Of a DNA stretch of 64,000 nt, positions 7,859 through 64,000 are shown one piece after another. The DNA lies in assembly GCA_000004695.1 (NCBI GenBank), contig CM000151.3, positions 6,528,001 to 6,592,000 on the forward strand. The letters are read 5' to 3'. The stretch is from Dictyostelium discoideum. Taxonomy: Eukaryota. The stretch's first letter is position 1. Each line of letters opens with the position of its first letter. Both the position numbers and the translations under genes were made by a program. Below the pieces are notes generated by a model. That model was not told the origin of the DNA and ran no database searches. It saw only the letters and a program-made list of their open reading frames with translations.

Positions 7859-8020
7859 GTTTTATGTGCAATAAATCAAATTCATAATTACCACCAATAA
7901 AAAATCCACAAAAAACTCACAATTTCACCACAATTACATATATAGATAAAATCAATTACATATATATATATATTTTTTTTTTTTTTTATTTTCAACAAAA
8001 ACAATACTCCCACATAAAGT

Positions 8021-11159: not shown

Positions 11160-12179
11160 ATGTTACCAATAACAAATAAAGTTGCATTAATTACAAAAAA
11201 AGGATTTTCAGAATCATTTTCAATTGTTGATAATGAAATTCCAAAACCTAAAGGAAATGAAGTTTTAATTAAAGTTGATTATGTTGGTCTTAATAGATGT
11301 GATCTTTATTTTTCATTGGGACTTTATTTACCATTTGAAAATTATCCAAATGTATCAGGTTTTGAAGCTTCAGGTACTGTTGTAGAATTTGCAAATGATG
11401 AATTAGAGAATTCAAGTAAATTTAAAGTTGGTGATAAAGTTAGTGTAATTTATACTTGTGATCATAGAAAATATGGTACATTTGCAGAATATGCAGTTTT
11501 TCCAATTGGTTGTTTAGTTAAGAATAATGAATTATCAAGTCAAAAAGAAATTGCTGCAAATTGGATTTCATTTTTCACTGCATACTATGGTCTTGTTGAA
11601 TTTGCTCAAATTAAAAAAGGTGATTATGTAATTATCACCGCTGGTAGTGCTGGAACTTCTTTAGCTGGTATTGCAATTGCTAAATTTTTTGGTGCTCATA
11701 CAATCGTTACAAGTCGTAATGAAAAGAAGAAACAACAAATTTTAGATTATGGTGCTGATTATTTCGTTTCTCTTGACACTGAAGATATTGTTAAAAGAAC
11801 CTTTGAAATTACTAATGGTAAAGGTGCAAATATTATATATGACTCTGTTGGTGGACAAAGTGCTCAAAAATTATTTGAATCATCTTCACAATTTGGTAAA
11901 ATTGTATTCTATGGTAATATGAATCACTCAGAACCAACACCTCTCCCAATTTTAATTGGTCTTAAAAATTACTTAACAATCAAAGTTTTAAATACAAATG
12001 AATACCTTTATCAACCTGAATTTAATAAAAAAGCTATTGAATTTTTAAATTCAAATTTTCATCATTTTAAATCAATAGTTGGTAAAGAATTTATTGGTAT
12101 TGATTCATTGGTTGATGCTCTTAAATATTTAGAAACTGGTGATTTATTTGGTAAAGTTGTTGTAAAAGTTAATAATTAA
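11160..12179 (+). CDS. Zinc-type alcohol dehydrogenase / quinone oxidoreductase family (MDR superfamily) protein, 339 aa, single exon
   Basis: The ATG..TAA ORF has an N-terminal GroES-like region (KVDYVGLNRCDLYF) and a Rossmann motif ITAGSAGTSLAGIAIAKFFGAHTIV. Its layout is that of NADPH:quinone reductase / zeta-crystallin-like enzymes. Confidence 0.7.
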   Translation: MLPITNKVALITKKGFSESFSIVDNEIPKPKGNEVLIKVDYVGLNRCDLYFSLGLYLPFENYPNVSGFEASGTVVEFANDELENSSKFKVGDKVSVIYTCDHRKYGTFAEYAVFPIGCLVKNNELSSQKEIAANWISFFTAYYGLVEFAQIKKGDYVIITAGSAGTSLAGIAIAKFFGAHTIVTSRNEKKKQQILDYGADYFVSLDTEDIVKRTFEITNGKGANIIYDSVGGQSAQKLFESSSQFGKIVFYGNMNHSEPTPLPILIGLKNYLTIKVLNTNEYLYQPEFNKKAIEFLNSNFHHFKSIVGKEFIGIDSLVDALKYLETGDLFGKVVVKVNN

Positions 12180-25192: not shown

Positions 25193-25445
25193 TGCGTGGG
25201 AATATAATTGTAAAAAAAAATAATTATTTTTTTTATACATAAATAGTTTAAATCTACTAGTTTGAATAGCGTTACCACCACCACTACCACCACTACTACT
25301 ACTACAGTTTCTATTTTTAAATTGTATATCATTTGGTACAATATAATAACCAATGAATTTATTACTATTATTTTTTTTAATTTTTTTTTTTTTTAATTTT
25401 TTTTTTTTTTTTATTAAAATAATTTATTCGTTCCAAGATACATAT

Positions 25446-25476
25446 GGGGGGGTGTGGGTTTGTGTGTTTTAGTGGG
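25446..25476. promoter_or_regulatory. G/GT-rich element GGGGGGGTGTGGGTTTGTGTGTTTTAGTGGG; a candidate G-box (GBF-type) regulatory site
   Basis: It contains G7 followed by GTGTGGG half-sites inside AT-rich DNA. CA-rich mirror elements lie at 26931-27010 (CACACACACACAA..CACACACACAACACACG..CGCCCCACC). Confidence 0.25.
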
Positions 25477-43350: not shown

Positions 43351-43432
43351 GACATCGTAGCAAAGTGGTCTAATGCGTCTGACTAGAAATCAGATCCCTT
43401 CGGGGGCGCAGGTTCGAACCCTGCCGATGTCG
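43351..43432 (+). tRNA. tRNA-Ser (anticodon AGA) with a long variable arm
   Basis: The acceptor stem GACATCG pairs with CGATGTC, followed by discriminator G. The anticodon stem-loop is TCTGA-CTAGAAA-TCAGA, giving anticodon AGA. The variable arm is the 13-nt stem-loop CCCTTCGGGGGCG. The T-arm is GCAGG-TTCGAAC-CCTGC, a B-box GGTTCGAACC. There is no intron. Confidence 0.85.
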
Positions 43433-43461
43433 ATACGTTATAAAAGATTTTTAATTTCCGA

Positions 43462-43472
43462 AGTTCGGGTCC
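43462..43472 (+). promoter_or_regulatory. External B-box-like element (AGTTCGGGTCC) 30 nt downstream of the tRNA
   Basis: It matches the B-box consensus GGTTCGANTCC at 8 of 10 positions. It sits between the tRNA 3' end and the retrotransposon 5' end, the arrangement typical of dictyostelid tRNA loci targeted by TRE3-type elements. Confidence 0.4.
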
Positions 43473-43699
43473 AGTTTTTAAGCCTATTAATAAATATTAA
43501 ATAAAACTCGTATTAAAAAAAAAAAACGAAAAAAACCGTACCGCGATCAAGAGGATACAAGATACACGTGAAAAGTAATTCATCCTTTTCTATCCTTAAT
43601 CTCGGTCAATTTTAACCAATCTTTCAAAAAAAATCACCAATCCACCACGATCTACAGATCTAACTTACCAAATCGCCGATTCAAAGGAATCCCATCGAG

Positions 43700-44953
43700 A
43701 TGAATTCCTACGCAGACGCGGCTAAAATGGCCAACCCCTCCACCCATATGGACGAGGCATCAGAGAACTTCATTAAGGAATTCTCCACAAAAACAGCAGA
43801 GATAAAGGAGACCTACCCCAAATTATCAATAGGCCTCAAAGACATCTCCAAATACTGCGAGACCATATTGAACATGACTGCGCTCTCAACCTACGAGAAA
43901 AACAACGGATTCTACCCAATTACACTCGAATTCCCCAAAATGGATCTCATGGGGTTAGAAGAAATGAGAAAAACACTCTCAAACTACGATATCCCAATCG
44001 ACAAGATATACATAGGCAAAGGAACTAGAAAAATGATCCACCTGATGATTAAAAACGAACAATCTCTCCTAAATATCATTAGAGATAGAAGCAAATTGGG
44101 AACCTTCATCACCTCCAGTAGAGACTACCACGTCCTCACAGGAAGAGTAAGAATTCCAAGAGAAAAGGCAGGAATAGTGGACGCCCTCATCAAAACTGCC
44201 TTTGCAGAAGAAATGCCCTATGCAATATACCATACTATATACTCCACCGACCACCTCCTAGTATTCGGTCTAATAGAATGCGAAATAGGCGATCAAATGA
44301 AATCTGGCCAACACAATACAGAAATCGCCAACTTTACCATCAGAACGGCCACCAAAACCTACTCCTCACAAAAGAAAAATAAGAAAGTAGAGTCAAACAA
44401 CACGGAAGAACCATTAGAAGATGAGATGACAGATGATCCTCCCAACATCCAAAACAGGATAGCAATCAAATCCTCTCAACCAAAACCACAACAACAAACA
44501 AACAACCCAGCAAACAATAAGTCTGATAAACAATCAACCCAAGAGAAAAAAGCCCAATCAAAAAAGTCCTCTCAACCTCTTCCCCCCAAAAACCAAGCAG
44601 AATCTCAATCTGTCAAACCCACCACAACCACTACCACAACATCCAACGCCATCCAAAAAGACAATGCCAACAAAACGAGCACTAACATCCATTCATCCTC
44701 GGAAAACAGAGAGAAGACACCAAACATCCCTCCATCACATAAACGCAAGAACGAGGAAATCCACTCAAACAACGAGGTCACCCAACTCTCACCAACAATA
44801 AACAGAAGCAACCCTTACATCCCATCCACCCCTAAGACACCTGTCAAAAATGAAAGGAAAGGAATCATTGAGAGCTTCATAGAGAGTATCTACCCTTCAC
44901 CATCCAAACCGCAGCTATACGACTCCCAAGAGGAGATCGATATCATCTCATAA
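43700..44953 (+). CDS. Retrotransposon ORF1 protein (417 aa) with a basic Ser/Thr/Pro/Gln-rich C-terminal half
   Basis: This is the first ORF of the TRE3-type element and ends one nt into ORF2's ATG. Its N-terminal half is non-repetitive (MNSYADAAKMANPSTHMDEASENFIKEF..). Confidence 0.7.
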   Translation: MNSYADAAKMANPSTHMDEASENFIKEFSTKTAEIKETYPKLSIGLKDISKYCETILNMTALSTYEKNNGFYPITLEFPKMDLMGLEEMRKTLSNYDIPIDKIYIGKGTRKMIHLMIKNEQSLLNIIRDRSKLGTFITSSRDYHVLTGRVRIPREKAGIVDALIKTAFAEEMPYAIYHTIYSTDHLLVFGLIECEIGDQMKSGQHNTEIANFTIRTATKTYSSQKKNKKVESNNTEEPLEDEMTDDPPNIQNRIAIKSSQPKPQQQTNNPANNKSDKQSTQEKKAQSKKSSQPLPPKNQAESQSVKPTTTTTTTSNAIQKDNANKTSTNIHSSSENREKTPNIPPSHKRKNEEIHSNNEVTQLSPTINRSNPYIPSTPKTPVKNERKGIIESFIESIYPSPSKPQLYDSQEEIDIIS

Positions 44954-47900
44954 TGGTAGTAATCAAAATCAACCAATGGAATGTCAGAGGTTGGGGCACT
45001 GACACCTCCTTCAAAAACAAAACAGACTTTATCAAATCCCAATCCCCCCCAAACTCATTGGCAATAACCATAGTCAATGAACTCAACGCCGACGCAACAC
45101 AAGCACACCAGCTATTTCCTGGCTCCATCATTAGCGCAACCAACAGAGGCAACGGAATAGGAATACTAAACCACAACAACCAAAACATAAAACTCTCACC
45201 AATATTCATAATAGAAGGTAGACTAATAATATCAGACATTCTAATAAAAGATACCACAACGAGAATCTTGGCCATATACGCCCCGGCCCAACCTGATAAA
45301 AGAAAAACACTAGCTTCAACACTAAACAAACACTTCAACAACCAATACCACAACCTAACGTCTAACCCTAAAAAAAACATCGACATCATAGCAGGCGACT
45401 TCAATTGTTTAGACTTCAATGACAATCACACATCAAATGATGACCAAGGCAACTTGACAACACAATCCCCAGATGAGATGGCCACAGTAATCGAAGCCAT
45501 CAGAATTTCAAATAACCTAATGGATATGGACCAACTAAATAAAAGACCCACCTTCTCAAGAACGATACACAACACAAACAATAACCTCACAAGAATCTTG
45601 GAAAGGAGACTAGACAGAATATACCTTAACAATAGCATAATCAACTACAGCCAATTATACTTAAGGAACCTAATCCCCCCAAAAATTAATGACATACCTC
45701 TATCAGATCACAACTTCCTATCAACCACCTTCACTCTACCCAACATACAGATGAACAAGCGCAGATGGAGATTAAAAAAATCCTCAATCCTCTCAAGCAT
45801 AATGCTTAAGAAAATAGACTTCCTACTTAACGATTATTCAAGGGAGCTGTCATCCAACCATAACTCTATTTCCTTCTCTCAACTCAACAGCTTACTAAAC
45901 AAAATAAAACAACTATACACAGAATTTCAAAAACAAAATGACTACAACAATAAGGCAAACATCAAAAATCTAATCTCCCTACTAGAGACAGAATTTAAAG
46001 ACCAAGCCTTCGCAACCCTTTCAGCAATAAATGAATCTAAAAAAAGAGAAGAACAACTTAAACAAGAATTGAACAACTATTGCGAAGAAACCTCACTCAA
46101 GTACATCTCCGCGAGAATCAAGAAAAGACACAATGATTTCACCATCAACGCAGTAAAAGATGCACAAGGTAGAACAATCAACAAACAGGAATTGATCGAA
46201 GAAGAATACGTAAAATATTACTCAAATCTTTATGACTACAAAGAAGATGACCCACCATCTCATTATGAAATGTTGGAAAATTGGACAGTGACCAGGGACT
46301 CAACATGGGACAACCTTGAAAATGAATTCACATCACAAGAGATCCTAGAAGTAATAAAACAATTGAACCCACACAAATCTCCAGGCCCAGATGGAATTCC
46401 AAACTTATTCTACATAACACACAAAGAAAAACTAGCTCCAATACTGGCCTCAGCATTCAACGACACTCTAAGAAATCCTCATCTAATTAGCAAAAATTAC
46501 AAAGAAGGCCTCATTATCACGATACCTAAAAAGGGAGACCCCGAACTAATCAAAAACAGAAGACCAATTACACTGGCTAACTGTATATATAAAATCCACT
46601 CAAAACTAATAAACAATAGAATAATCCCAATACTAACGAAAGTGATCAACCACAATCAAAAAGGTTTCGTACCAGGCAGATTCATTATAGATAATATCAT
46701 ATCAATGAACGAATTAATCAACTATTGTAATGATAAAAGAATTAACGGAATAATTACACTATATGATTTCGAAAAAGCTTTTGACTCGATCTCACACGGT
46801 TCAATACTCAGATCACTACAACACATCAACATTCCAACCAATATAATCAACCTGATAATGAATCTACTCACCAAATCTGAAGCAAGAATTGAAATTAATG
46901 GTAGAACTACTATACCCTTTGAGATCAAAAGAGGAGTTAAACAAGGAGATCCACTATCACCCACCCTGTTCGTCCTTGTAATAGAGGCTTTAGCTAGAAA
47001 AATTTTACAAGATGACCGAATTACTGGCCTTCCTCTAAACAACAGCAACCACAGAGAGAAATTCCAAAGCTTTGCAGACGACTCGGCTTCAATGGTCCCA
47101 GACTCTCAACAACTTGAATTAGTACTACAACACTTCAATTCATTTTGCAAAGCCACTTCCTCAAAACTAAACATCGACAAATCTTCATCAATTCTTATAG
47201 GCAACCCAGACAATACCAACCAAAGAATTCCAATATCTACAAATCCAGAAAGATACTTGGGATACTTCTTCACAGGCAAAGGGATAACAAGAAAAATGCC
47301 AGAAATATTAAACACAATAAGATCATCCTTAGTACTATGGAAAACCACTGACTCAACAATCAAAACCAAAACCAACATCCTCAAAGCATTCGCACTCTCT
47401 AAATTAACCTACTATTCATATGTAGAGAACTTTAAGGAAGAGGAATTAAACCAAATCAATAAATTAGTCGAATGGTTTTTATCGGCACCAAACAACAAAA
47501 ATGCTAGTGGATTTCAAGTTATTAATTTAATGAGAGCCAAAAGAGCAAGATACCCACTAAAAGTAGGAGGCTGGAACATTTGGAATATAGAATTGAGACA
47601 ACTGGCGCAGAAACTTTGGATTATAAACCAGTTCATCCTAGCACTAGAAACCAAACAAACAAACTCATCTCATCACAAAAGCTGGGAATATCAGATCCAA
47701 AAAAACAAATTCACATCCAGATACCTAAAAGAAAACTTAGACGAATGGAACAAAATAAGAATAAAAAAAGCAATCTTCAACAATAATCTCACATCCATAA
47801 AAAACGAAAATGGACAACCACTTTCACTGGCAGAATGGTATACCACAATTCAAGACCAAAATCCAACCATCCCTAAAACGGAATTCCAATCATCTCTAAA

Positions 47901-48657
47901 CTTAAGAGGCTACAGCTATAATCAACTCTTCAACAATATACTGAAGATAAAAGACCCTAAAACAAGAGACACAATGTTTAGATTCCATGCCAGATGCCTT
48001 CCAATAAACTACCTTCACAACAAACAATGCCCACTCTGCAAAGAAGATATGAGCAAAGACCCATACGGTCACCTGTTCTTCTCATGCAAGAAAACAAAAC
48101 AATTCATAAAAATAAATAAACTCAAAAATTTCATCTTTATTACCACAGGCAAAGGTAAAAACTGGCACCATACAAGAATTAGGCAAAATAACAATTTCAT
48201 TAATAGAATAACTCCAAAATTATCACCGACAGCCAAAAAAGATCAAGAAGTGAATGCAGATTACGCCAACCACAGATTCCACAAAGAATACTTTGAATGG
48301 AACTATAAAGCAATAGACTATGATCTAACCAGATCATTCGCATATAGAAACCTAATGGCCCTTATCCTCCACAACATTTGGATTTGGATTTGCAATCAAA
48401 TATACAGTGAAGATCCTTTAACAGATGAATCACTATCATACAGCTCCCTTCTAAAGAAATGGCACAAATTGGCCACTCTAGAATACATCAAAAAAGCAAA
48501 AGATCTGAAAAACTTATCAGCAAAAGACCATAATAACTTCAAAGATCCTAAGATCCTTCTCACTTCAACGATCAAGCTAAGAAAAACAACAGCTAATTAC
48601 TATTGTATTCCAGAATCATCTCTCCCAAATATTATATCTTTTGATCAATTCATATGA
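44953..48657 (+). CDS. Retrotransposon ORF2 polyprotein (1234 aa): apurinic-endonuclease-like domain, reverse transcriptase and C-terminal zinc-knuckle-like region
   Basis: The N-terminus MVVIKINQWNVRGWG.. is an EEP/APE endonuclease start. The RT blocks are ..FYITHKEKLAPILASAFN.., GFVPGRFIIDNI, ITLYDFEKAFDSISHGSI and QSFADDSASMV (the F/YxDD box). The whole ORF is intact with no internal stops. Confidence 0.8.
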   Translation: MVVIKINQWNVRGWGTDTSFKNKTDFIKSQSPPNSLAITIVNELNADATQAHQLFPGSIISATNRGNGIGILNHNNQNIKLSPIFIIEGRLIISDILIKDTTTRILAIYAPAQPDKRKTLASTLNKHFNNQYHNLTSNPKKNIDIIAGDFNCLDFNDNHTSNDDQGNLTTQSPDEMATVIEAIRISNNLMDMDQLNKRPTFSRTIHNTNNNLTRILERRLDRIYLNNSIINYSQLYLRNLIPPKINDIPLSDHNFLSTTFTLPNIQMNKRRWRLKKSSILSSIMLKKIDFLLNDYSRELSSNHNSISFSQLNSLLNKIKQLYTEFQKQNDYNNKANIKNLISLLETEFKDQAFATLSAINESKKREEQLKQELNNYCEETSLKYISARIKKRHNDFTINAVKDAQGRTINKQELIEEEYVKYYSNLYDYKEDDPPSHYEMLENWTVTRDSTWDNLENEFTSQEILEVIKQLNPHKSPGPDGIPNLFYITHKEKLAPILASAFNDTLRNPHLISKNYKEGLIITIPKKGDPELIKNRRPITLANCIYKIHSKLINNRIIPILTKVINHNQKGFVPGRFIIDNIISMNELINYCNDKRINGIITLYDFEKAFDSISHGSILRSLQHINIPTNIINLIMNLLTKSEARIEINGRTTIPFEIKRGVKQGDPLSPTLFVLVIEALARKILQDDRITGLPLNNSNHREKFQSFADDSASMVPDSQQLELVLQHFNSFCKATSSKLNIDKSSSILIGNPDNTNQRIPISTNPERYLGYFFTGKGITRKMPEILNTIRSSLVLWKTTDSTIKTKTNILKAFALSKLTYYSYVENFKEEELNQINKLVEWFLSAPNNKNASGFQVINLMRAKRARYPLKVGGWNIWNIELRQLAQKLWIINQFILALETKQTNSSHHKSWEYQIQKNKFTSRYLKENLDEWNKIRIKKAIFNNNLTSIKNENGQPLSLAEWYTTIQDQNPTIPKTEFQSSLNLRGYSYNQLFNNILKIKDPKTRDTMFRFHARCLPINYLHNKQCPLCKEDMSKDPYGHLFFSCKKTKQFIKINKLKNFIFITTGKGKNWHHTRIRQNNNFINRITPKLSPTAKKDQEVNADYANHRFHKEYFEWNYKAIDYDLTRSFAYRNLMALILHNIWIWICNQIYSEDPLTDESLSYSSLLKKWHKLATLEYIKKAKDLKNLSAKDHNNFKDPKILLTSTIKLRKTTANYYCIPESSLPNIISFDQFI

Positions 48658-51133: not shown

Positions 51134-52494
51134 TTAAAGGAAATATAATTTATCAGATAAATCTTTATCAACATTACGACCAACAGTTCTACCAATTAAA
51201 AATGCCATTTTATGAGCAAATTGACAACTTGCTGGTACACGAACAGATTTTTCAAAATTGAAATAAAGATGACACATTTGGAAAGTAAAGAATTGGAATA
51301 AATCAGCAGCCATTTGATGTTCATCCAATAAGACATGGTAATGAGTTGGATTGATTGAACCTTTGAAAGCAACTTGAGAGACCAAAAAGAAATCGTACCA
51401 ATTTTGATGGGTAATCTTTGAATCGATTAAAGTACCTGGTGGAGGATTTGCTTTTTGATTATCGTTTGTAAAGAAACGAGCGTTTGTATTCTTTTTAACG
51501 ATAGTGTAAACCAATTTTGGTTTAGTACCCCAAGAAGAAGGAGTTTCGGCAAAACCTTTTTTCATTGCGGCAATTTCAGTCTTATTGACGAGATCCAACA
51601 TACCATCACCAACACCATCACGATAAACAATCACCAATTCTGGTAAACAATTGTTATGGTTAAAGTAGCTTTTCATAGCTTCTTTGGTGGCGTCCTCAAG
51701 GGAATGAATAATTTCTTTACCAGGACGTTCTTGAGCGTAAGCACGAGAGAAAAACTTTTGGAATTTATCATCGATGGTTGCAACGAAACCAACCACTGAA
51801 TGACCTTTCATATCTGAATTGTGACCAACATCGACACCAATGACCATGGTTTTCTTTGGTACACCCTTGTAGATATCTTGACCGAGACCCCATGGTGCTA
51901 AACCTAACTTGGCAACCACTTGTTGTTTCAATTTGACAGAGACTGGTCTACCTTTATCAAAGGTTCTAGAAAAGATACATTGAGTTAAAACTCTGAATTG
52001 GATCAATGACTTCATTTTGATACCTTTGTAAACTTCTGCATTATTTTGAGGAATAATAATCAAAAAGAAGCTAACACCTTTTTTGACATATTGTTCCATA
52101 ATATCAGTGTAAATGGTTGATTTAATATCACGGGAACTCTTTGGAAGTACTGGATGATGAATAGTTGGTGGTTGTAATTGACTTTCTCTAAGGAAAAGAT
52201 CAAGATTCTTTTGACACTCACCTCTTTGGAAATCAAGTTGTTCAACAATGAATACCCATTTAACATTTCTCAATGCATTGGCGTTATTAATTGGAACATT
52301 CTTTGGTGCTTGTAATACACAACCTTCAACTTTTAAAGCTGGTTGATAAGAAATACCCCATGATTCCAACTCTTTTGAAATTGTTGGATTTGTATTAAAT
52401 CCATTAACAAAATTATTTAAATTATCAATTCTTTTATATGGTTCAACATTTGATTCTTCTGCTAAATCTTTCATAATATGAAAATCTTTACGCA

Positions 52495-52538
<44 letters not shown>

Positions 52539-54276
52539 TAATATTAATATATTTTTTTTTTAAAAATATGTATTTAAAATATATATTTTAATAAAATTTT
52601 TAAAACTTACTTCATCATTTAAACCAGTTAAATAAGTTAATTCTGGAACTAAATAAATTGTTTGTTTCATACCTCTCATTTTAACTTCAGATTTTAATAA
52701 TGGTTGATTTAAATCGGTGATTTTATATTTTGGATAATTCTTTTGATAATATTGTAAAAAGGTAGTTGAACCTTCCATAATATCGGTAACCTTTGAATTT
52801 TTACCTTGCCATGAAATACCAGAGATACGATAAGTTTTATTATTATAACGAGTTAAAACAATTGAATTTACAATTTCAGCGGTGCATCTATTGGTATTAT
52901 TATTTAAATATCTAATTCTTTCCAATACAGTCTGAGATCTAACAACTTTGGTAGTTGAATCACATAATAACATTGTACCAGCTTCAGTTGGAATAACTGA
53001 TGTACTAAAACCTTTCCAAACTTCTAAAAAGTGTTTTGGTACATCTCTTTTACCAACTGATGTATAATAATTTCTACCCATTAATGAATATCCCATTGAT
53101 CTCATAAACTAATAAAAAAAAATAAATAAAAAAATTTAATAATTAATTATTTATATATTAATATATATTTATAAATTTATATTTATAAAAACCTACAGAT
53201 TTGGTTAAAACATTAAAGAATTGAGTAATTGATTTATCAGTATGATCAAATTCTTTTGCTAATTTAATTAAAATTTGAACTCCATCAACATTTTGAGAAT
53301 TAATTTGAATCTTTTTAGCAGAGAATAATAAAGAATCACCATCATATTTAGTAAAGATTAAAGAATTTGCAGCTAGGAATTCTTTCATAACCTTGAATCT
53401 TCTATCTCTTGCAACTTGTGGTGGATCGTAATCAATACGATAGAGGAATAAACTTCTATTTTGTCTTACTTGAACTGGGAAGAAATTTGTAATAACAGAA
53501 ATTGGTTGACTTTGAATTGATCTTGGTTTTGCTGGGACAATTGCAATATTTTCAATATCATCATCTTTGACTAAATCTTTTCTTGAAATTGTTGGAACCT
53601 GTGCTGCTGCTGGTGAACTTGATGAAGTGGTAGTAGTAGTGGTAGTGGTTGTTTGTTGTTGTTGTTGTTGTTGCTGTTGTTGTTGTGGTTGTTGTTGTGG
53701 TTGAAGATTTTGTGGTGGCTGCTTACCCCAAGAACCACTTGGTTGTTTTGGTTGACCTTGTTGTGGACCTTGTTGTGGGCCCCTTTGTTGTTGTTGACCT
53801 TGTTGTTGACCTTGTTGTGGACCTCTTTGTTGTTGTTGACCTTGTTGTGGGTGACCTTGTTGTGGGTGACCTTGTTGTGGACCTCTTTGTTGTTGTTGTG
53901 GGTGACCTTGTTGTGGACCTCTTTGTTGTTGTTGTGGGTTACCTTGTTGTTGACCTTGTTGTTGTGGACCTCTTTGTTGTTGACCTTGTTGTGGGTGACC
54001 TTGTTGTTGGCCTTGTGGGTGACCTTGTGGGTGACCTTGTTGATGGAAACCTGGTGGTGGACCTCTTGGTTGTTGTTGTTGTTGTTGTTGTTGTGGTTGT
54101 TGTTGTTGTTGTTGTTGTGGTTGTTGTTGTTGTTGGAAACCTGGTGGTGGACCTCTTGGTTGTTGTTGTTGTTGTTGATGTTGTGGTTGTTGTTGGAAAC
54201 CTGGTGGTGGTTTTACGCCTCCTGCTGGATTTGGTTGGTTTGGTTCATCTTGTATGTTTGGTTTTTTAGGACCCAT
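51134..54276 (-). CDS. Argonaute/Piwi-family protein (~979 aa): Gln/Gly-Pro-rich repeat N-terminus, PAZ and Piwi domains; three exons 54276..53197, 53108..52611 and 52495..51134
   Basis: Exon 1 is MGPKKPNIQDEP.. with (QGHPQQG)n repeats and ends ..NVLTKS|GTAGGT. Exon 2 (FMRSMGYSLMG..EVWKGFSTSVIPTEAGTMLLCDSTTKV..PAZ..TYLTGLNDE|GTAAGT) is phase 0. Exon 3 begins after AAAAAG| and reads MRKDFHIMKDL... The Piwi catalytic-triad context is present: GVDVGH, IVYRDGVGDG and NPTHYHVLLDE. The C-terminus is ..QFAHKMAFLIGRTVGR..KLYFL*. Confidence 0.75.
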
Positions 54277-54740
54277 GTTAATTGGATTAAGAAAAATATA
54301 TATATATATATAAATAAAACAATTATTTTATTTAAATATGTATCTTTTAATTAAATAATGTTTAGTGGAAAAAAAAAAAAGTTAAAAAAAAAAAATTAAA
54401 ACGTCAGAATCTTGAAAAAAAAAAAAAAAAAAATGAAAAAAAATAAAATATTTTGAAAAAAATTCGCGCTGACTTTTCAAAGATTTTTTTTTTTTTGGAT
54501 TATGTTTTAGAAAAAAAGATCTGAAAAATTGTTTTTATTAATGGTAAGGTATACTATTTTCATATTTTTGTCTTTGAATTCAATTATTTTAAAAAAAAAA
54601 ATATATATAAGTGATTTGTTTTGATTTTTTAATTTTTTTTAAATAAATGAATAAAATTAGGGATTTAATTATTATATTTTTTTTTTTTTAATAGCATAAA
54701 AAATTATTTTAGTGATTAAAAGTTTCAATCTGGCAAAATT

Positions 54741-54755
54741 TGGGTGGGAGGGGGA
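54741..54755. promoter_or_regulatory. G-box-like element TGGGTGGGAGGGGGA in the ~670-bp spacer upstream of the Argonaute gene and downstream of the guanylyl-cyclase gene
   Basis: It is an isolated 15-mer of G/purine in AT-rich DNA, about 465 bp 5' of the Argonaute ATG. The gene is on the minus strand, so upstream means higher coordinates. Confidence 0.25.
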
Positions 54756-54942
54756 GAAATCTAAATAAATTAAAATAATTTAAAATCAAAAAAATTGATT
54801 AAATAAAGTAGATTTTTAAGTTTAATTTTTAAAAAATACATAAATACTATTTTACAATTGTTTATTATTTTTTTTTTTGGTTTCTTTTTTTTTTCTTTTT
54901 TTGAAATTTTTCTATTTAGTTTTTTTTTTTTTTTTCTTCTAA

Positions 54943-57759: not shown

Positions 57760-60398
57760 GTTATTGTTATTATTAATATTTGGTTGTGATGCTAATAATA
57801 AAACATTATTAGTTTTATATGAACTATGATCAGCTTGATTATTTAATAATTGTTTTTGAAGTTGTTGTTGTTGTTGTAATTGTTGAAGTAATTGTTGTTG
57901 AGTATTAATAGTTGTTGATTTAATGAAATCCAATCTTTCCAATACAGCTAAATCTTTTGCTAAATCTTGTTTACTAATTGCATCCAATGGTAGAATACGA
58001 TGAAGTGAATCAACAGTAAAAGGCATACCAATTACAGAGGCAATTTTCAACTCCAATTGTTGAATGGGTGATAATCTATCGACTCTACTAGTGATCAATG
58101 ATGTTACAGTACGTGGTAATGATAGTCTAACATGGTCAATTGCCTCTTTAGGATTAATGAATCTTGAAGATGCTTCATCGATTAGTCCATTTGAAATTAG
58201 ACCATTCACCATCTCCTCAATTACAAAATGATTACCTTGTGAACGATTATAGATCTCTTCAATGATTTCATCTGGTATACCACTTTCATCACTTGGAAAA
58301 TCTAACATTCTCTCTACCAATAGTGTGGTTTCAACCTTACCATTCAATGGTTCCAATTGAATTTTCGTTACCAACTCTGTTGGTAATTGACTGAATCCAT
58401 AGGGTATACCATCTTTTGAGGGACGTAATGAAATGATTATTAAACAATTTGCTAAATTTTTAACAGCATTCAATGTTAATGTCCAACTTGCACTGTCCAT
58501 AAATTGTGCATCATCAATTACAATAATACTACCAGTTGGTATTGCTTTTGTTAAAATTTTCATCATTGTCAATTGTAATGATTCTGCTCTTTGTTGTGCT
58601 GAATATCTACGATTCTCTTTTAATTCTTCTGATGTTAATTTAATAACTGATGTTTGTAATTGATTTTGTTCAACTATTGGTAATTTTTCATTATTTTCAT
58701 TGCCATTATTATTATTATTATTGATTATATTTATATCTAAAACTTGATTTAATAATTGAATTTGAGTAAAATTAAAATCAGAAAATGATTGATAACCATT
58801 AATTGATTCATCTTTTAAAAATTGTAATAAAATTTGTTTCCAAATATAAAATGAGATTGATTCAGACATTTGAATACCACTTGCTTTAAACATTTTTAAA
58901 TCCATACAAAATGAATATTTAATTTCAGAGATTAATCTAGATTTACCTAAACCAGCTTCAGCTTCAATGATTGCGACATGAGTTGGACCAGAATTACTTG
59001 TGATTTGATCGATTATATTTGCCATTTGACGTAATTGAGTGTGTCTTCCAATGATACCTTTATTCTTTATCATATGACGTGGTGATGAATTTTTCATTGA
59101 TTGTAATTTTTTAATTGGTTTATAAACATTGATTGGGGCAACTTTACCCTTGACTTTGATTGGATTTGCCAATTTAACAAATTCAATCATTTTTGCAGTT
59201 TTCGAGGTTTCTTCATCACAAAGTACACCACCTTGTGAATGTGACATTAAACGTGCTGCCAAGTTTACAATATCACCAACCACGGCATATTCCCTACGTT
59301 CATCACTACCAACATCACCACAAAAACATTTACCAGTGGTGATACCAACCGATGAAATCACTGCCAATTTGAAAACATTTACCACAATCTCCATTGCAGC
59401 TTCAACTGCACGTGATGGATCGTCCTCATGTGAATAAGGTGGTACACCCCATGCTGCTATCAGGACACAACCCTTATCATCCACTATAAATTGACGAACT
59501 GTACCTTCATGTTTATAAACTATCGCTTGACTTTCAAATACAATATTTTGAAGTTTATCTAAATCTGTGTCTGGATTTGGAGTACCATAGGATAAATTCA
59601 TAAATAACACAGTGATATAACGTAACTCTGCCAAATAATCATTTTTGAATTGATTGTGAACTGCATTTGGTACGAATCTTTTCAAAGAATCCTCCATATC
59701 CATTAGTAGTGGTAACTCTTGTAAGAATTTATGATTGATTTGAGAGCCAACCATGGTTGAGAGGAAATCGAAATCATTGATTAAATCTTTCTCCAAAAGG
59801 GTTGTTATCGATTCCAATTTGTAGTTATGTTTTTGTTTCTTTTGTGAAAAGGTTGCATATGGTTTCATCTTTTCTTGAGTGGCTGGTGATACATAGATCT
59901 CCCCAGACTCTGCCTCCTTTTCACATAGAGTAGCTTGAATTAATGCTTCACCACAAATTAAAAACTCTACTTTCTCTTTACAACCACCAACGTAAACCCC
60001 ACTAATATCACCACATCCAATACCAATATGCAATGTTAAGAATCCACCTGGCACTGGGAAATTATGTAACTTCTTTTGTAATGCCAATGAACATTCACAT
60101 GCAATTCTAACCCTATTTATCAACTCTCCATTGGTTGGCCAATGTGCTAATACTGCATCACCTGCAAACTTTACAATATCACCTCCAAATCCTTTCACTA
60201 TCTTTATCAGTATTGTAAAATATGAATTTAAATTCTTTGTTAATAATTCAACACCTTCTTTACCATGATTACCTAATCTTTCTGTTAGTGATGTAAATCC
60301 TGAAATATCTGCAAATAATACACATGATGAATATCTATTTTTTAAAAAAAAAAAAAAAAAAAAAAAAGTTAAAATTTTTGTTTTCTCTTATTATTAAC

Positions 60399-60497
<99 letters not shown>

Positions 60498-61163
60498 TAC
60501 TTTTCTAAATGTGGTGGTACAATTGGAGTTGCAGAAGCTAATAAACCTTTAATAACTAAATTTGAAACATAACTACCTAAAGAAGTGATTTGATGTCTTT
60601 GTTTTTCATCTAATGGTACTTGATCTTGACGTTCTCTATGAGTTGAACCTTCTAACCAAAATTGATTAAAACTATTTCTTTGTTGGTGTTCATCATTTTG
60701 TTTCATTGAACGTAAATGTTTTGAAAATATTGACAAACCAATTTTATTTTGTTTTGATAAATCTTTTGGTTTTAATAATTGTTTTTTTGATAATACATCT
60801 TCTGATGCTCCTAAAATTTGATTTAATTTCTTATTATTACTATTATTAATACTTGTACCTAAATTACCGCTATTATTATTTGTTGATGTTGATGTTGTTG
60901 TTGTTGAATCATTTAATTTTGATATATTTAATTCTGGTACTTTAAATCCATATGTTACAGTTTGTTGATCATTATTTGATACCACCACCGACATTGGTGA
61001 TGTATTTCCATTATTATTATTATTTACATTATTATATCTATCCATTTCCTCGTTATTATCAATTGTATTTAAAAGGTCATAAATTAAATTTTGATTTTGT
61101 ACAGTGTCGGTTGTGTTTGTTATTGCTGTTGTTGTTGTGGTGGTGGTGGTGGTTGTGGTTGTT

Positions 61164-61219
<56 letters not shown>

Positions 61220-62455
61220 TGGTGATGAAATTGGTATAAGATCACTAATTCTTTCAAGTGAAGTTGATGGTGATATCTTTGAGTGTGATGATGATGATGG
61301 TGAAGTTACAGGTGATGATACAGGTGATATAATTGGAGAGGATATAGGTGATAATATAGGTGTCGTTGGACGACTTTTACTACTACTACTACTATTGCTA
61401 TTGTTATTATTTATACTATCTAATTTATCTGATTTATCTTTTACTTTTGAATTTAATTTAAATATTGATTTTATTGGACTTGAAGATGTTTTATCATGAT
61501 TTTTTGACTCTAATGATTTTGGATGATGTGGTGGTTTGGATTTAGTTGTTTTACTATTACTTAAACTATTAATATTTAAACCTGTCGTTGAAGTTGGATT
61601 TGAAGTCGTTGGATTTTCGATTACTATTTTTGAATTAAATTAATTTTAAAATAATTAAATTTTAAAAAAAAAAATTAAAAAAAAAAAAAAAAAAGAAGAA
61701 ATAAAAATAAATAAAAATAAAATTAATTGATATTAATATTAAATTTTAATATTGTAATTTAAAATTTTATATTGATTGGATTGGATTGGATTTGATTTGG
61801 AACTGAATAAAAAAAATAAAAAAAAAAAATAAAAAAAAAAAACAAAATAAAATAAAAAAAAAAATAAAATAAAAAAAAAAAAAATGGCGAGTTTATTTGA
61901 ATGTCTATTTTTGATTATAATATGGATGTTGTTGGGTTTGTTTTGTTTTTTTTTTTTTTTTTATAAAAATTTAATTTTGATTTTTTGATTTTGATTTTTT
62001 TTTTTTTTTTTTGTAGTTTTTTTTTTTTTTAATGTATTTAAATAAAATTATTACTTTAAAAAAAAAAATTGTAGGTGTTGGTATTTTTGGTTTGTTTGTG
62101 GTGATGTTGTATTTTGTTTGGTTATAAAATAATAATTTAAAATTATAATAAATAATTATAATAATAATAAATAATAATAATTATAAAATAAAAATAAATG
62201 ATTATTTGTGTAATAATTTTTTTTTAAGTAGGTTACCTATATTATATGTATTTTTGATTATAAATTATTTTTTTTGATTTTTGATGTGATTTTGGGGTAG
62301 AGGTGGTTTTTTTTTTTTTATAAAAAAAATAAAATAAAATTGAAAAAAAAAAAAAAAATTTTGAAAATGAGATTTGATGTGTGAATCAAAAAAAAAAAAA
62401 AAAACTTTTTGGTGTGTAAAAATATCTTTTACAAGATTATATGAAAAAAAAAAAA

Positions 62456-62486
<31 letters not shown>

Positions 62487-63371
62487 TTGGGGGGGCATTA
62501 ATGTATAATGATTATAGTAATTTGATAGTTATTGTAATGAAGTGCAACAAAAAATATTTTTTTTTTAATTAAAAAAAAAAAAATAATAATAATAAAAATA
62601 ATAATAAAAATAATAATAAAAATAATAATAAAAATAATAAAAATAATAATAAAAATAATAAAAGCTTTTGCTGGGGGAGGTTGGGAGTGGTGTGGGGGTA
62701 GTGTATGAATAACAATAAATAAACAACAAAAGAAAAATAAAAAAAAAAATAATGAAAAAAAAAAAAAAAAAAAAAAAAAAATAATGAAGTGATACATACC
62801 AATAGTTGGTTGTGAGAAAGTGAATTTTTGGAACATCTCCAATACAATTTCCAATGGTTCAATTAAATCCTAATAAAATAAGAATAAAAATAATTTTTCA
62901 ATTAGAAAAAAAAAAAAAAAGGGGTTGACAGTTAGTATGATTTTTTTTTTTTTTTTTTTTGTGTTTTTTTTATATTATTATCATAAAAATTATTATAAAA
63001 TTTTAAATTTTAAAACTATAGTTTACATTTGAGTTTATAGTGGATAAATTAAATAGATGATCAATGAGAGATTCATCAGTGATTTTAATTTTTAAGTGAT
63101 TACAAATATCCAATAATTTTGATAATAAACTTGGAATTATAACATTCTTTGCTTGCTCTATATATAAAGTTCCAATTTTTGGTGTTGATGATGATGATGA
63201 TGGTGATGTTGGTGAAGATTGATTATTATTATTATTTGAAATTGGTGATAGTGGTGGTGATTGAGTAAGTGGAGTTGTTGATCCACTATTTGTTGGTGAC
63301 GCTGTTGTTTTATTTACTGATGAAGGATTACCACGTGGTGTTGATACTCCTCTTGGTGTTATTGGACCACC

Positions 63372-63404
<33 letters not shown>

Positions 63405-63724
63405 TTTTAATTTAATTTTTTGAATATTTTTAAGATGATACATTAAAGTCATTAAAGTATCACTCAATTGAAAGATTTGATCGAAAAGATCAGGTTTTAT
63501 TACAGAGGTAGTGGAATTATTACTACTACTATTACTATTACTATTTACTGATACATTGCTACTATTAACATTTAAAGCTGATTTATGTTGTTTTTTACTA
63601 CTTTGTGTTGGTGAATTACTATTACTATTATTTACATTTGATGATACATTAGTTTTTGTCAAAGTGATAATATTATTACCTTTGGCACGTGATACAATTG
63701 GTGAATTCTCTGGTGATGATGATA

Positions 63725-63778
<54 letters not shown>

Positions 63779-64000
63779 GATTATTATTGCTATTATTATT
63801 AATAGTACCATTACTAGCACCATCAAAAAATGAATTAAAACTCATTGATAATCTTTTATTACTTGCTGCGCTACCTAAAATTGGTGGAATCAATGGTTTT
63901 TGTGGTTGTAATATTGGTGAAGTTAGGATTGGTGGTGTTGAAATTGATGATGATGGTGAACCAGATAAAATTGGTGATGATGGTATTGAATTGTTATTAC
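54943..64000 (-). CDS. sgcA: Soluble guanylyl cyclase of the soluble-adenylyl-cyclase (sAC) type: two class-III cyclase catalytic domains followed by a P-loop NTPase (STAND) and TPR-like region. At least 4 exons lie in the window: >64000..63027, 62869..62800, 61623..60501 and 60334..54943. The 5' end lies beyond the right edge
   Basis: The last exon (1796 aa) contains cyclase 1 (YSSCVLFADISGFTSLTERLGNHGKEGVELL..GGDIVKFAGDAVLAHW), cyclase 2 (..VDDKGCVLIAAWGVPPYSHEDDP..CFCGDVGSDERREYAVVGDIVNLAARLM), Walker A EAEAGLGKSRL, and a long helical-repeat and low-complexity C-terminus. It joins to the previous exon through a phase-2 intron (AA|GTAATT at 60500 .. AAAATAG| at 60335-36) that contains an (AAT)~33 tract. 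Exon 61623..60501 is Ser/Thr/Asn-rich. A 70-nt exon (DLIEPLEIVLEMFQKFTFSQPTI) lies between a canonical TTTTATTAG| acceptor and a G|GTATGT donor. The phase-1 junction G|TA to 61623 closes the frame. The listed ORF 63003..63893 would be the next exon upstream through a phase-0 GTAAAC donor at 63026. The tallied length (~2.5k aa in the window) fits a ~2.8k-aa sAC-like cyclase. Confidence 0.6.
60398..60497. repeat. (AAT)n trinucleotide microsatellite of ~33 units inside an sgcA intron
   Basis: A perfect AATAAT.. run is visible on the plus strand. It lies between the donor at 60500 and the acceptor at 60335. Confidence 0.85.

What the first reader, a model, noticed from the sequence alone, without database searches (positions are those of the whole stretch)
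61624..62799. Unusually long (~1.2-kb) intron in the guanylyl-cyclase gene carrying plus-strand G-rich islands
Joining the 70-nt exon (62869..62800) to the exon starting at 61623 keeps the frame (G|TA). It requires an intron several-fold longer than the ~80-170-nt introns seen elsewhere in the window. That intron contains G7 (62489-62495), GGGGTAGAGGTGG (62295-62307), GT-rich runs (62080-62130) and GCTGGGGGAGGTTGGGAGTGGTGTGGGGGTAG (62672-62704), which could form a G-quadruplex. All of these are on the non-template strand in an otherwise >85% AT context. The candidates are an intronic enhancer or G-box cluster, a hidden small gene, or additional unrecognised micro-exons.
Basis: partly seen in the sequence, partly recalled or inferred. 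Interest (0 to 1): 0.5.

Follow-up and report, generated by a model that had tools for sequence, protein, structure and literature searches.

The report
Conserved long intron in Dictyostelium sgcA
The 1.2-kb gap is a genuine, unusually long intron of the Dictyostelium soluble guanylyl cyclase gene sgcA. Its "G-rich islands" are the complement of conserved C/CA-rich patches in the pre-mRNA, a published pattern for this genome, so the finding is real but mostly ordinary.

Summary
The window is Dictyostelium discoideum and the gene is sgcA (minus strand).

**What is there**
- The interval 61624-62799 is a single 1176-nt GT-AG intron, about 8 times the species mean of 146 nt.
- It follows a 70-nt exon that is needed to keep the reading frame.
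- One-gene status and the junctions are supported by the published ~1010-1019-residue N-terminal segment, by one-gene annotations in D. cf. discoideum and D. citrinum, and by one colinear BLASTP match to Polysphondylium violaceum sGC that crosses both junctions.

- The G-rich islands are real, and 62670-62701 is the best G4Hunter hit in the window (2.2).
- They lie on the template strand, not the non-template strand. The pre-mRNA is C-rich (C:G = 136:22).
- Hidden exons, a plus-strand ORF, known ncRNAs, a recursive splice site and RNA bridging were tested and rejected.

**Conservation**
- The intron stays long in sister species (1094 and 1003 nt; 481 nt in P. violaceum).
- About half of it lies in conserved blocks, including a ~105-nt CA-rich element.
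- G4 potential is not conserved.

**Function and novelty**
- Function is inferred: most likely pre-mRNA pyrimidine/CA-rich splicing elements, with an intronic enhancer as the rival.
- This matches the published enrichment of non-coding-strand G4 motifs in Dictyostelium introns.

The parts
63027..64000 (-). Upstream sgcA coding exon. It is open to the window edge and ends ...STINSN, phase 0, before the donor GTAAAC.
   Evidence: Open frame. It aligns colinearly with P. violaceum sGC residues 318-450. It is 91-95% identical in D. citrinum and D. cf. discoideum.
62870..63026 (-). Ordinary 157-nt intron (GTAAAC...TTATTAG) with a perfect UACUAAC branch site at 62937-62931, followed by CAACCCC and T15.
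   Evidence: Direct reading. CATACTAAC and the 3' end are conserved in three species, and the rest is poorly conserved.
62800..62869 (-). 70-nt coding micro-exon (DLIEPLEIVLEMFQKFTFSQPTI plus 1 nt). It shifts the phase from 0 to 1 and is required to keep the frame.
   Evidence: It is 70/70 identical in D. cf. discoideum. D. citrinum has two changes, both synonymous. The homologous P. violaceum exon is 76 nt with the same phases.
61624..62799 (-). The 1176-nt GT-AG intron (GTATGT...AAAAATAG). Sense-strand composition is T578 A440 C136 G22.
   Evidence: It is present at the same site in D. cf. discoideum (1094 nt), D. citrinum (1003 nt) and P. violaceum (481 nt).
62670..62701 (+). The strongest G island on the template strand. 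On the sense strand it is a 30-nt C/CA-rich tract ending in CAG (62673-62671), the first AG after the donor.
   Evidence: G4Hunter 2.2. There are only three G tracts of 3 or more (direct reading). The CAG and CA-rich character are conserved, but the C runs are broken in D. citrinum.
62489..62495 (+). G7 run (C7 in the pre-mRNA).
   Evidence: It is C6 in D. cf. discoideum and GCACCCC in D. citrinum.
62276..62306 (+). GGGGTAGAGGTGG island plus its flank. On the sense strand it reads CCACCTCTACCCCAAAATCACATCAAAAATC.
   Evidence: It is nearly invariant in three species.
62032..62137 (-). A ~105-nt conserved element. It holds a CA-rich island (62121-62071) flanked by A/U-rich arms. Across three species there is one substitution, plus length variation in one T-run.
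   Evidence: Blocks of 69 and 35 nt in alignment A1. The sense RNA can form a weak 14-bp A-U stem that presents the CA-rich loop (z = -3.2).
61885..61939 (-). A 55-nt conserved block, AAACCCAACAACATCCATATTATAATCAAAAATAGACATTCAAATAAACTCGCCA.
   Evidence: It overlaps plus-strand ORF 61884-61988, whose ATG is ATA in D. citrinum.
61624..61674 (-). The 3' end of the intron: a T-run, then AAAATTTAATTATTTTAAAATTAATTTAATTCAAAAATAG with the acceptor AG at 61625-61624.
   Evidence: A 37-nt block and the acceptor are conserved in three species.
60501..61623 (-). Next sgcA coding exon (VIENPTTS...PPHLEK). It is followed by a 166-nt (AAT)n-rich intron (60335-60500) and then the exon carrying the catalytic domain (60334-54943).

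Best explanation
Shown:
- The interval is one genuine spliceosomal intron inside the N-terminal coding region of D. discoideum sgcA (soluble guanylyl cyclase, DDB_G0276269). It lies between a conserved 70-nt micro-exon and the next exon.
- It is about 8 times longer than the species average.
- It is kept long in sister species.
- Its sense strand is almost free of G (1.9%), while C reaches 11.6%. The plus-strand 'G-rich islands' are therefore the template-strand complement of C-rich and CA-rich islands in the pre-mRNA.
- About half of the intron, including most islands, lies in blocks conserved between D. discoideum, D. cf. discoideum and D. citrinum.

Inferred (about 0.4 on its own):
- The islands act in the pre-mRNA as pyrimidine-tract-like or CA-rich intronic splicing elements.
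- The scarcity of G leaves only 12 GT and 9 AG decoys.
- Together these would let a spliceosome tuned to ~100-150-nt introns pair the true sites across 1.2 kb.
- The first island, with its conserved CAG 129 nt after the donor, looks like a complete 3' splice-site module. It may act as a decoy or as an unproductive alternative acceptor.

Separate confidences: single real intron 0.93; template-strand assignment about 1.0; purifying selection on at least the ~105-nt element 0.8.
For: Gene identity:
- An ADH-like protein encoded in the window is identical to D. discoideum AX4 XP_643354.1.
- The Pumilio element ATTGTAAAATA lies about 85 nt after the stop. It is listed at 86 for sgcA in the supplement of PMC5678099.
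- sgcA is DDB_G0276269 (PMC7725310).

One gene across the gap:
- Published constructs use the sGC N-terminal residues 1-1010 (PMC8684759) and 1-1019 (PMC5678099). I read this segment as ending near the catalytic domain.
- Only about 397 residues lie between the micro-exon and the catalytic motif.
- The orthologues are annotated as one gene of 2901 and 2838 aa running past the interval.
- One BLASTP HSP (E = 4e-15) to P. violaceum sGC runs through both junctions with no extra residues.

Splice logic:
- Joining the upstream exon directly to 61623 or 61581 gives a stop codon. The 70-nt exon restores the frame.
- Only the single-intron path is sensible.
- Donor, acceptor and exon phases are conserved.

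Strand asymmetry:
- C:G is 6.2, 6.3 and 4.3 in the three close species and 1.9 in P. violaceum.
- The rarer base is at its lowest among the 28 long AT-rich blocks of the window.

Genome-wide context:
- G4-prone motifs are enriched 2-3.4 fold in D. discoideum introns, and only on the non-coding strand, so they are C-rich in the RNA (PMC6511855).

Conservation:
- 48% of the intron lies in three-way blocks of at least 20 nt. The figures are 0-22% for two short introns and the sgcA-Argonaute spacer.
- G/C positions are conserved at 68%, against 15% in the spacer (p = 1e-17) and 57% at four-fold degenerate G/C sites.
- Blocks of 69 and 35 nt carry a single substitution between them.
Against: - No transcript evidence could be reached with these tools. 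The junction is inferred from frame, conservation and annotation.
- The RNA-level role is untested.
- The conserved blocks also include long A/T-rich stretches, which would fit DNA-level elements as well.
- Overall intron identity to D. citrinum (84.6%) is about that of third codon positions (82-88%). Selection is therefore clear only for the long near-perfect blocks and the G/C positions.
- In the P. violaceum homologous intron G is not strongly avoided (50 G in 481 nt).
- Saad et al. state that the strand bias of G4 motifs is not explained by a simple G-content bias in introns genome-wide, so G avoidance may be special to this intron.
- An alternative in-frame acceptor (CAG|G, exon start 61581) cannot be excluded. 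It would make the intron 1218 nt.
Confidence: 0.45

Rival explanations
1. The conserved G/C-rich islands are DNA-level cis-regulatory elements inside the intron. They could be G-box/CAE-type sites for GBF-like factors, acting as an intronic enhancer or internal promoter for sgcA. Their uniform orientation would then arise only because G is disfavoured on the spliced sense strand.
For: - GBF response-element heptamers (T/G)G(T/G)G(T/G)G(T/G) (PMC2257962) occur at three places in the interval (62411, 62488-62495, 62689-62699).
- A CACACC/CCCACAC core persists in D. cf. discoideum and D. citrinum even where the G4 potential is lost.
- The intron has the size and composition of a Dictyostelium promoter-bearing spacer.
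- The conserved blocks extend well beyond simple C tracts.
- P. violaceum also keeps about 1.3 kb of intron around the micro-exon, with both G-rich and C-rich boxes.
Against: - All islands have the same polarity (C on the sense strand). In spacers of the same window the boxes occur in either orientation.
- The heptamers are common throughout the window (86 found against 33 expected) and so are not specific.
- A sense-strand internal promoter would give a leader of about 600 nt with out-of-frame ATGs before the first in-frame Met at 61045. Typical 5' UTRs are 58-83 nt (supplement of PMC6511855).
- The papers read here give no indication that sgcA depends on GBF.
Confidence: 0.3
2. The islands have no function. 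A strand-biased mutational or compositional process, plus the short divergence time among the three close species, produces the skew and the apparent conservation.
For: - Overall identity to D. citrinum (84.6%) is close to that of third codon positions (82-88%).
- No nucleotide similarity to the P. violaceum introns beyond homopolymers.
- The strongest island is the least conserved one.
Against: - At about 79% three-way conservation per neutral four-fold site, a ~105-nt stretch with one substitution is very unlikely. My estimate is p of order 1e-9 per site of origin.
- G/C positions are 4.5 times better conserved than in the adjacent spacer.
- The two short introns of the same gene are far less conserved.
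- The usual transcription-associated asymmetry would enrich G, not C, on the coding strand (my own knowledge).
Confidence: 0.15
3. A DNA G-quadruplex on the template strand at 62670-62701 regulates Pol II passage or replication through sgcA.
For: - The G4Hunter window score is 2.2. Saad et al. state that scores above 2.0 are extremely likely to fold, and all 14 motifs they tested in vitro folded, including 11 that escaped the canonical consensus.
- The motif sits about 100-130 nt into the intron.
Against: - Only three G tracts of 3 or more are present, so a bulge is needed (direct reading).
- The score falls to 1.64 in D. cf. discoideum. In D. citrinum the best window in the whole intron is 1.44 and lies in a different island.
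- The other islands do not reach 1.2.
Confidence: 0.06
4. The interval is not a plain intron. It hides extra coding micro-exons, a small gene or ncRNA, or it is an intergenic spacer between two separate genes.
For: - The size is typical of a spacer.
- Small hydrophobic plus-strand ORFs exist (61884-61988 and 62032-62127).
- One AG|GT junction exists at 62237/62236.
Against: - Exhaustive enumeration of GT-AG paths finds only poly-Phe/Ile nonsense 'exons' with weak donors.
- No Rfam, tRNA or DUSE hit.
- The plus-strand ORFs lose their start codon or are frame-shifted in sister species.
- The AG|GT site is lost in D. citrinum.
- The orthologous protein is colinear across the junctions.
- One-gene annotations of 2901 and 2838 aa.
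- The published N-terminal length.
Confidence: 0.04

Closest known systems
sgcA / sGC of Dictyostelium discoideum (DDB_G0276269), the soluble-adenylyl-cyclase-like guanylyl cyclase
   Same: It is this gene. The 3'-UTR Pumilio element is in the expected place, the catalytic region is sAC-like, and there is a long N-terminal segment of about 1010-1019 residues.
   Different: Nothing differs at the gene level. The papers I could read do not discuss the intron, and the original cloning paper (Roelofs et al. 2001, EMBO J) is not in the library.
Intronic G4-prone motifs on the non-coding strand in D. discoideum (Saad et al. 2019, NAR, PMC6511855)
   Same: The motif is in an intron and on the non-coding strand, so it is C-rich in the pre-mRNA. 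Its G4Hunter score is at least 2.0. The paper reports that 62 of 18,192 introns have such a motif.
   Different: - This locus is not named in the paper or in its held supplements.
- Here the whole 1.2-kb intron is skewed, not just one motif.
- The G4 potential is not conserved in sister species, whereas the CA-rich character is.
GBF-binding G-boxes / CA-rich elements (CAEs) of Dictyostelium developmental promoters
   Same: Short G/T-rich (or C/A-rich) boxes in extremely AT-rich DNA that match (T/G)G(T/G)G(T/G)G(T/G).
   Different: - They are intronic, not upstream of the gene.
- All have one polarity.
- No evidence of GBF dependence.
- Such heptamers are frequent in all spacers of the window.
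CA-rich and C-rich intronic splicing enhancers of metazoans (bound by hnRNP L or poly(C)-binding proteins); my own knowledge
   Same: Conserved sense-strand CA-rich and C-rich tracts inside a long intron. A working analogy for the proposed mechanism.
   Different: No such factor or element has been described for Dictyostelium in the papers I read. This is a resemblance only, and membership is not testable here.
Recursive (ratchet-point) splice sites of long Drosophila and vertebrate introns; my own knowledge
   Same: One juxtaposed AG|GTAACC sits mid-intron (62237/62236) and matches both local splice-site consensus sequences.
   Different: It is not conserved in D. citrinum (TAATTAGGTTAC). Given the single GG on the sense strand, the chance of such a site is about 8% (my estimate). 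Rejected.

Membership tests
U2-type GT-AG spliceosomal intron of sgcA | Consensus donor (GTA...) and acceptor (AT-rich tract plus AG) at the stated ends | tested here: met
   GTATGT at 62799-62794 and AAAAATAG at 61631-61624. Both are identical in D. cf. discoideum and D. citrinum.
U2-type GT-AG spliceosomal intron of sgcA | Removal joins the exons in frame without a stop codon | tested here: met
   G|TA gives Val, followed by 2194 open codons to the stop. It is the only sensible path among all GT-AG combinations.
U2-type GT-AG spliceosomal intron of sgcA | The flanking exons encode one protein in orthologues, with intron position and phase conserved | tested here: met
   A single BLASTP HSP crosses both junctions to P. 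violaceum sGC. The homologous 76-nt exon has phases 0 and 1. One-gene annotations of 2901 and 2838 aa.
U2-type GT-AG spliceosomal intron of sgcA | A spliced junction observed in cDNA or RNA-seq | not testable with these tools
   No transcript data were reachable. The cloning papers are not held.
G4-prone motif (G4Hunter class of Saad et al. 2019) | G4Hunter score of at least 1.5-2.0 in a 25-nt window | tested here: met
   Maximum 2.2 at 62670-62703, the best in the window.
G4-prone motif (G4Hunter class of Saad et al. 2019) | Canonical four G tracts of 3 or more with short loops | tested here: not met
   Direct reading: the tracts are G5, G2, G3, G2, G5, so only three have 3 or more. A bulged tract would be needed.
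G4-prone motif (G4Hunter class of Saad et al. 2019) | Folding into a quadruplex in vitro | not testable with these tools
   Needs CD, TDS or NMR on the oligonucleotide.
G4-prone motif (G4Hunter class of Saad et al. 2019) | G tracts retained in related species, as expected if the G4 is the functional unit. This is my added criterion, not part of the definition. | tested here: not met
   Scores are 2.2, 1.64 and 1.44, and the last is in a different island.
GBF G-box / CAE element | Match to (T/G)G(T/G)G(T/G)G(T/G) | tested here: met
   Six overlapping matches at three places in the interval. A CACACC-type core is kept in three species.
GBF G-box / CAE element | Occurrence above the local background | tested here: inconclusive
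   There are 86 in the window against 33 expected, clustered in most spacers. The interval is not exceptional.
GBF G-box / CAE element | GBF binding and GBF-dependent expression of the gene | not testable with these tools
   No binding or expression data were reachable.
Intron-hosted ncRNA gene (snoRNA, class I RNA, tRNA and similar) | Match to a known RNA family, or the DUSE upstream element WCCCAYAA | tested here: not met
   Rfam at the gathering threshold and at E up to 10, ARAGORN, and a DUSE scan found nothing in 61400-63100.

The most novel reading that the evidence does not exclude
The conserved C-rich and CA-rich islands, together with the near-absence of G on the sense strand, are a dedicated RNA-level device. 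It would let an organism whose spliceosome works by intron definition on ~140-nt introns remove a rare 1.2-kb intron. The 5'-proximal pseudo-intron module (GTATGT ... C/CA tract ... CAG at +129) would serve as a decoy or as a regulated unproductive acceptor that tunes sGC levels. This would also give a function to the unexplained genome-wide excess of C-rich motifs in Dictyostelium introns.
Probability: 0.2. Interest if true: 0.55.

Novelty: new member of a known kind. Interest (0 to 1): 0.3.

Why it matters
sGC is a central enzyme of Dictyostelium chemotaxis, and its N-terminal segment, interrupted by this intron, localises the protein to the leading edge.

- **Practical point.** The intron exceeds 1 kb. 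A read mapper run with a 1000-nt intron limit, as in the supplement of PMC6511855, would miss the junction and could make the gene look split.
- **Biological point.** The intron is a well-defined, conserved example of the published but unexplained class of Dictyostelium introns with C-rich pre-mRNA tracts. It contains a ~105-nt element under clear purifying selection.
- **What it enables.** It would make a convenient test case for deciding whether such tracts act in splicing or in transcription.

None of this overturns current knowledge.

Tried and rejected
1. **Reading the annotation from the protein database.** Two searches, with the N-terminal region and with the cyclase region, returned no dictyostelid sGC (best hit 43% identity). 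I reached the orthologous loci through the neighbouring Argonaute gene instead, and reached P. violaceum sGC through the representatives search.
2. **Exact look-ups.** The 182-aa ORF at 60497-61045 is not on record.
3. **Cloning papers.** Roelofs 2001 and Veltman 2005 and 2006 are not held.
4. **Metagenome scan** for relatives of the upstream exon found nothing.
5. **Pfam** on the N-terminal region found no family.
6. **Hidden ncRNA.** No Rfam, tRNA or DUSE hit.
7. **Hidden exons.** Excluded by enumeration.
8. **Plus-strand small ORFs.** Not conserved as coding sequence.
9. **Repeats or a transposon remnant.** Only low-complexity A/T repeats were found.
10. **RNA structure bridging the splice sites.** The whole-intron MFE has z = -2.5, but the graph distance from the 5' splice site to the branch region (73) is not shorter than in shuffles (38 +/- 24).
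11. **Recursive splice site AG|GTAACC.** Lost in D. citrinum.
12. **Plus-strand hairpin 62495-62550** (z = -2.75). Two of the three D. citrinum changes break it.
13. **Regular spacing of the islands.** Not regular.
14. **Synteny in D. dimigraforme and D. purpureum via Argonaute.** sgcA is not adjacent there.
15. **Nucleotide similarity to the P. violaceum introns.** Only homopolymers match.
Full report
**Source and gene**

The window is Dictyostelium discoideum. A 339-aa alcohol-dehydrogenase-like protein encoded at 11160-12179 is identical to XP_643354.1 of strain AX4. A second D. discoideum assembly matches the first 20.6 kb at 99.3% identity.

The minus-strand gene that ends at 54943 has a soluble-adenylyl-cyclase-like catalytic region. 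It carries the Pumilio element ATTGTAAAATA about 85 nt after its stop codon. That element is listed at position 86 for sgcA in the supplement of PMC5678099. sgcA is DDB_G0276269 and encodes sGC (PMC7725310).

**The observation**

Read on the minus strand, the structure is as follows.
- An open frame runs from the window edge to 63027 (...STINSN), followed by GTAAAC.
- A 157-nt intron ends in TTATTAG.
- A 70-nt exon (62869-62800) encodes DLIEPLEIVLEMFQKFTFSQPTI plus one base, followed by GTATGT.
- 1176 nt follow, of which 86.6% are A+T.
- After AAAAATAG, an exon starts at 61623 (VIENPTTS...).

The join G|TA keeps the frame, which then stays open for 2194 codons to the stop.

The G islands exist, with coordinate slips of 1-3 nt. 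They are far beyond chance.
- The plus strand has 136 G against 22 C (p = 2e-22).
- The rarer base is at its lowest among all 28 long AT-rich blocks in the window.
- The 32-mer at 62670-62701 gives the best G4Hunter window in the 64 kb (2.2).

The gene is on the minus strand, so the plus-strand G islands are on the template strand, and the pre-mRNA is C-rich.

**Is it one intron of one gene?**

Four lines of evidence agree.

1. Published work uses N-terminal residues 1-1010 and 1-1019 of sGC as the segment sufficient for localisation (PMC8684759 and PMC5678099). I read this segment as ending near the catalytic domain. In the window only about 397 residues lie between the start of the 70-nt exon and the catalytic motif YSSCVLFADISGF. 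A gene starting downstream of the gap would have about 180. The gene must therefore cross the gap.

2. I fetched syntenic loci through the neighbouring Argonaute gene. In D. cf. discoideum and D. citrinum the orthologue is annotated as a single gene of 2901 and 2838 residues, running from beyond the locus start to its stop. The coding sequence downstream of the interval can supply only about 2170 residues.

3. The representatives search returned Polysphondylium violaceum sGC (KAF2073845.1). One BLASTP HSP (E = 4e-15) runs colinearly from the upstream exon through the micro-exon peptide (…LE..L.MF..F.F..QP) into the downstream exon (SSPIK.IF.NSK). No residues are inserted at the junction.

4. 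Splice logic.
   - Joining the upstream exon directly to 61623 or 61581 gives a stop codon. The 70-nt exon, which shifts the phase from 0 to 1, is required.
   - On the sense strand of the interval there are only 12 GT and 9 AG. Exhaustive enumeration gives only the single intron, the same intron via one AG|GT site, or contrived chains of poly-Phe/Ile 'exons' with weak donors.
   - An alternative in-frame acceptor (CAG|G, with the exon starting at 61581) cannot be excluded.

In the three-species alignment the micro-exon is invariant except for two synonymous changes in D. citrinum, and the donor and acceptor are identical. In P. violaceum the homologous exon is 76 nt with the same phases. It is flanked by introns of 867 and 481 nt. 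Direct transcript evidence could not be reached.

**What else could be hidden there**

- No Rfam family matches at the gathering threshold or at E up to 10. There is no tRNA and no DUSE element.
- Repeats are only low-complexity A/T arrays.
- Plus-strand ORF 61884-61988 has ATA in place of ATG in D. citrinum.
- Plus-strand ORF 62032-62127 is interrupted by an A-run of 11, 10 or 9 bases in the three species, which shifts the frame.
- The AG|GTAACC site at 62237/62236 is lost in D. citrinum.
- A plus-strand hairpin at 62495-62550 (z = -2.75) is broken by two of its three substitutions.
- Whole-intron folding is slightly more stable than shuffles (z = -2.5) but does not bring the splice sites closer.

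**Composition**

| Sequence class | Sense-strand G | Sense-strand C | Source |
|---|---|---|---|
| Long intron (sgcA) | 1.9% | 11.6% | |
| Ten short introns in the window | 2.3% | 4.0% | |
| AT-rich spacers | about 3-7% each, in either polarity | about 3-7% each, in either polarity | |

The interval therefore shares the G scarcity of introns and differs by added C. The polarity is conserved: C:G is 6.2, 6.3 and 4.3 in the three close species and 1.9 in the homologous P. violaceum intron.

This matches a published genome-wide pattern. G4-prone motifs are 2-3.4 fold enriched in D. discoideum introns, and only on the non-coding strand, so they are C-rich in the RNA. Only 62 of 18,192 introns reach a score of 2.0 (PMC6511855). 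This locus is not named there.

**Conservation**

The intron is 1176, 1094 and 1003 nt in D. discoideum, D. cf. discoideum and D. citrinum.

| Region | Identity to D. citrinum | Gap columns | In three-way blocks of at least 20 nt |
|---|---|---|---|
| Long intron | 84.6% | 21% | 48% |
| 157-nt intron | 79% | 31% | 13% |
| 166-nt intron | 59% | 48% | 0% |
| sgcA-Argonaute spacer | 68% | 51% | 22% |
| Exons | 91-97% | 0-12% | 75-94% (four larger exon segments; the 70-nt exon was not scored) |

G/C positions cannot align by chance in A/T-rich sequence. They are conserved at 68% in the long intron, against 15% in the spacer (p = 1e-17) and 57% at four-fold degenerate G/C sites of sgcA itself.

The most striking element is 62137-62032. 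It carries one substitution in about 105 nt across three species, plus a T-run length change. At about 79% three-way conservation per neutral site, this is very unlikely by chance.

By contrast the strongest G4 island is the least conserved. Its CAG and its CA-rich character persist, but the C runs are broken. G4Hunter falls from 2.2 to 1.64 in D. cf. discoideum. In D. citrinum the best window is 1.44 and lies in another island. No nucleotide similarity to the P. violaceum introns remains.

**Mechanism**

Shown:
- A real, long, position-conserved intron.
- G islands on the template strand.
- A uniform C over G polarity on the sense strand.
- Purifying selection on several blocks.
- No conservation of the G4.

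Inferred: the uniform polarity of all islands points to a constraint or function at the level of the transcript. G/C boxes in spacers of the same window occur in both orientations, and C-rich motifs are in excess genome-wide in introns on one strand only.

I therefore favour pyrimidine-tract-like or CA-rich splicing elements, combined with a sense strand poor in GT and AG decoys. These would aid removal of an intron 8 times the usual size.

The first 129 nt mimic a complete normal intron: GTATGT, a T-rich stretch, CATACACTAC, a 30-nt C/CA tract, then CAG. That CAG is the first AG after the donor and is conserved in three species. Using it would give a stop after 57 codons, so it may be a decoy or an unproductive acceptor.

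The main rival is a DNA-level enhancer of the G-box/CAE type. GBF-type heptamers are present and their CACACC core is conserved. However, such heptamers are common in all spacers of the window. A sense-strand internal promoter would also give an implausibly long leader with upstream ATGs, against typical 5' UTRs of 58-83 nt. A neutral reading is weakened by the long near-perfect blocks. A template-strand G4 role is weakened by the lack of conservation.

**Comparison and verdict**

The gene and, evidently, its gene model are known. The island pattern belongs to a published class.
- the corrected strand assignment;
- the exclusion of hidden exons and genes;
- the conserved micro-exon and long-intron architecture out to P. 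violaceum;
- conserved intronic blocks, including a ~105-nt CA-rich element.

I rate it as a new member of a known kind, of modest interest.

Noticed in passing
window 43351-48657: A tRNA-Ser(AGA) gene (43351-43432, plus strand) is followed about 270 nt downstream by a two-ORF non-LTR retroelement. ORF1 is 43700-44953. ORF2 is 44953-48657 and has a reverse-transcriptase domain. It looks like a tRNA-gene-targeted TRE3-type element (the family name is from my own knowledge).
   Followed up: partly
window 51134-54276 (minus strand): A three-exon Argonaute/Piwi gene with a long Q/P/G-rich N-terminal repeat lies directly downstream of sgcA. The adjacency is kept in D. cf. discoideum and D. citrinum (L002, L003) but not in D. 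dimigraforme or D. purpureum (L004, L005).
   Followed up: partly
window 8007-8046, 25437-25466, 54732-54756: Other G/C-rich boxes sit in AT-rich spacers, with G4Hunter scores of 1.6-1.8 and in either polarity. GBF-type heptamers occur 86 times in the window against 33 expected from shuffles, clustered in spacers.
   Followed up: partly
window 62671-62799 (minus strand): The first 129 nt of the long intron look like a complete normal-size intron: GTATGT, a T-rich stretch, CATACACTAC, a 30-nt C/CA tract, then CAG. The CAG is the first AG after the donor and is conserved in three species. Using it would give a stop after 57 codons.
   Followed up: partly
window 62870-63026 (minus strand): The 157-nt intron has a perfect yeast-type UACUAAC branch site (62937-62931) followed by CAACCCC and T15. 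CATACTAAC is conserved in three species, while the rest of the intron is not.
   Followed up: yes
window 60335-60500 (minus strand): The 166-nt sgcA intron is almost pure (AAT)n/(ATT)n. It is the least conserved segment of the locus (59% identity and 48% gap columns against D. citrinum).
   Followed up: yes
L006 4342-5765 (Polysphondylium violaceum sGC): The homologous micro-exon (76 nt, 5209-5284) is flanked by an 867-nt intron and a 481-nt intron. The 867-nt intron holds both C-rich and G-rich boxes. The 481-nt intron is C-rich on the sense strand (C:G = 97:50). The total intron length around the micro-exon (1348 nt) is close to that in D. discoideum (1333 nt).
   Followed up: partly
window 62030-62140 (minus strand): In the sense RNA, the conserved ~105-nt element can form a weak 14-bp A-U stem (-6.2 kcal/mol, z = -3.2) that would present the CA-rich island as an 82-nt loop. 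Both arms are invariant in three species, so covariation cannot be tested.
   Followed up: partly
supplement of PMC6511855 (methods): RNA-seq mapping there used a maximum intron length of 1000 nt. Such settings would miss the 1176-nt sgcA junction.
   Followed up: no
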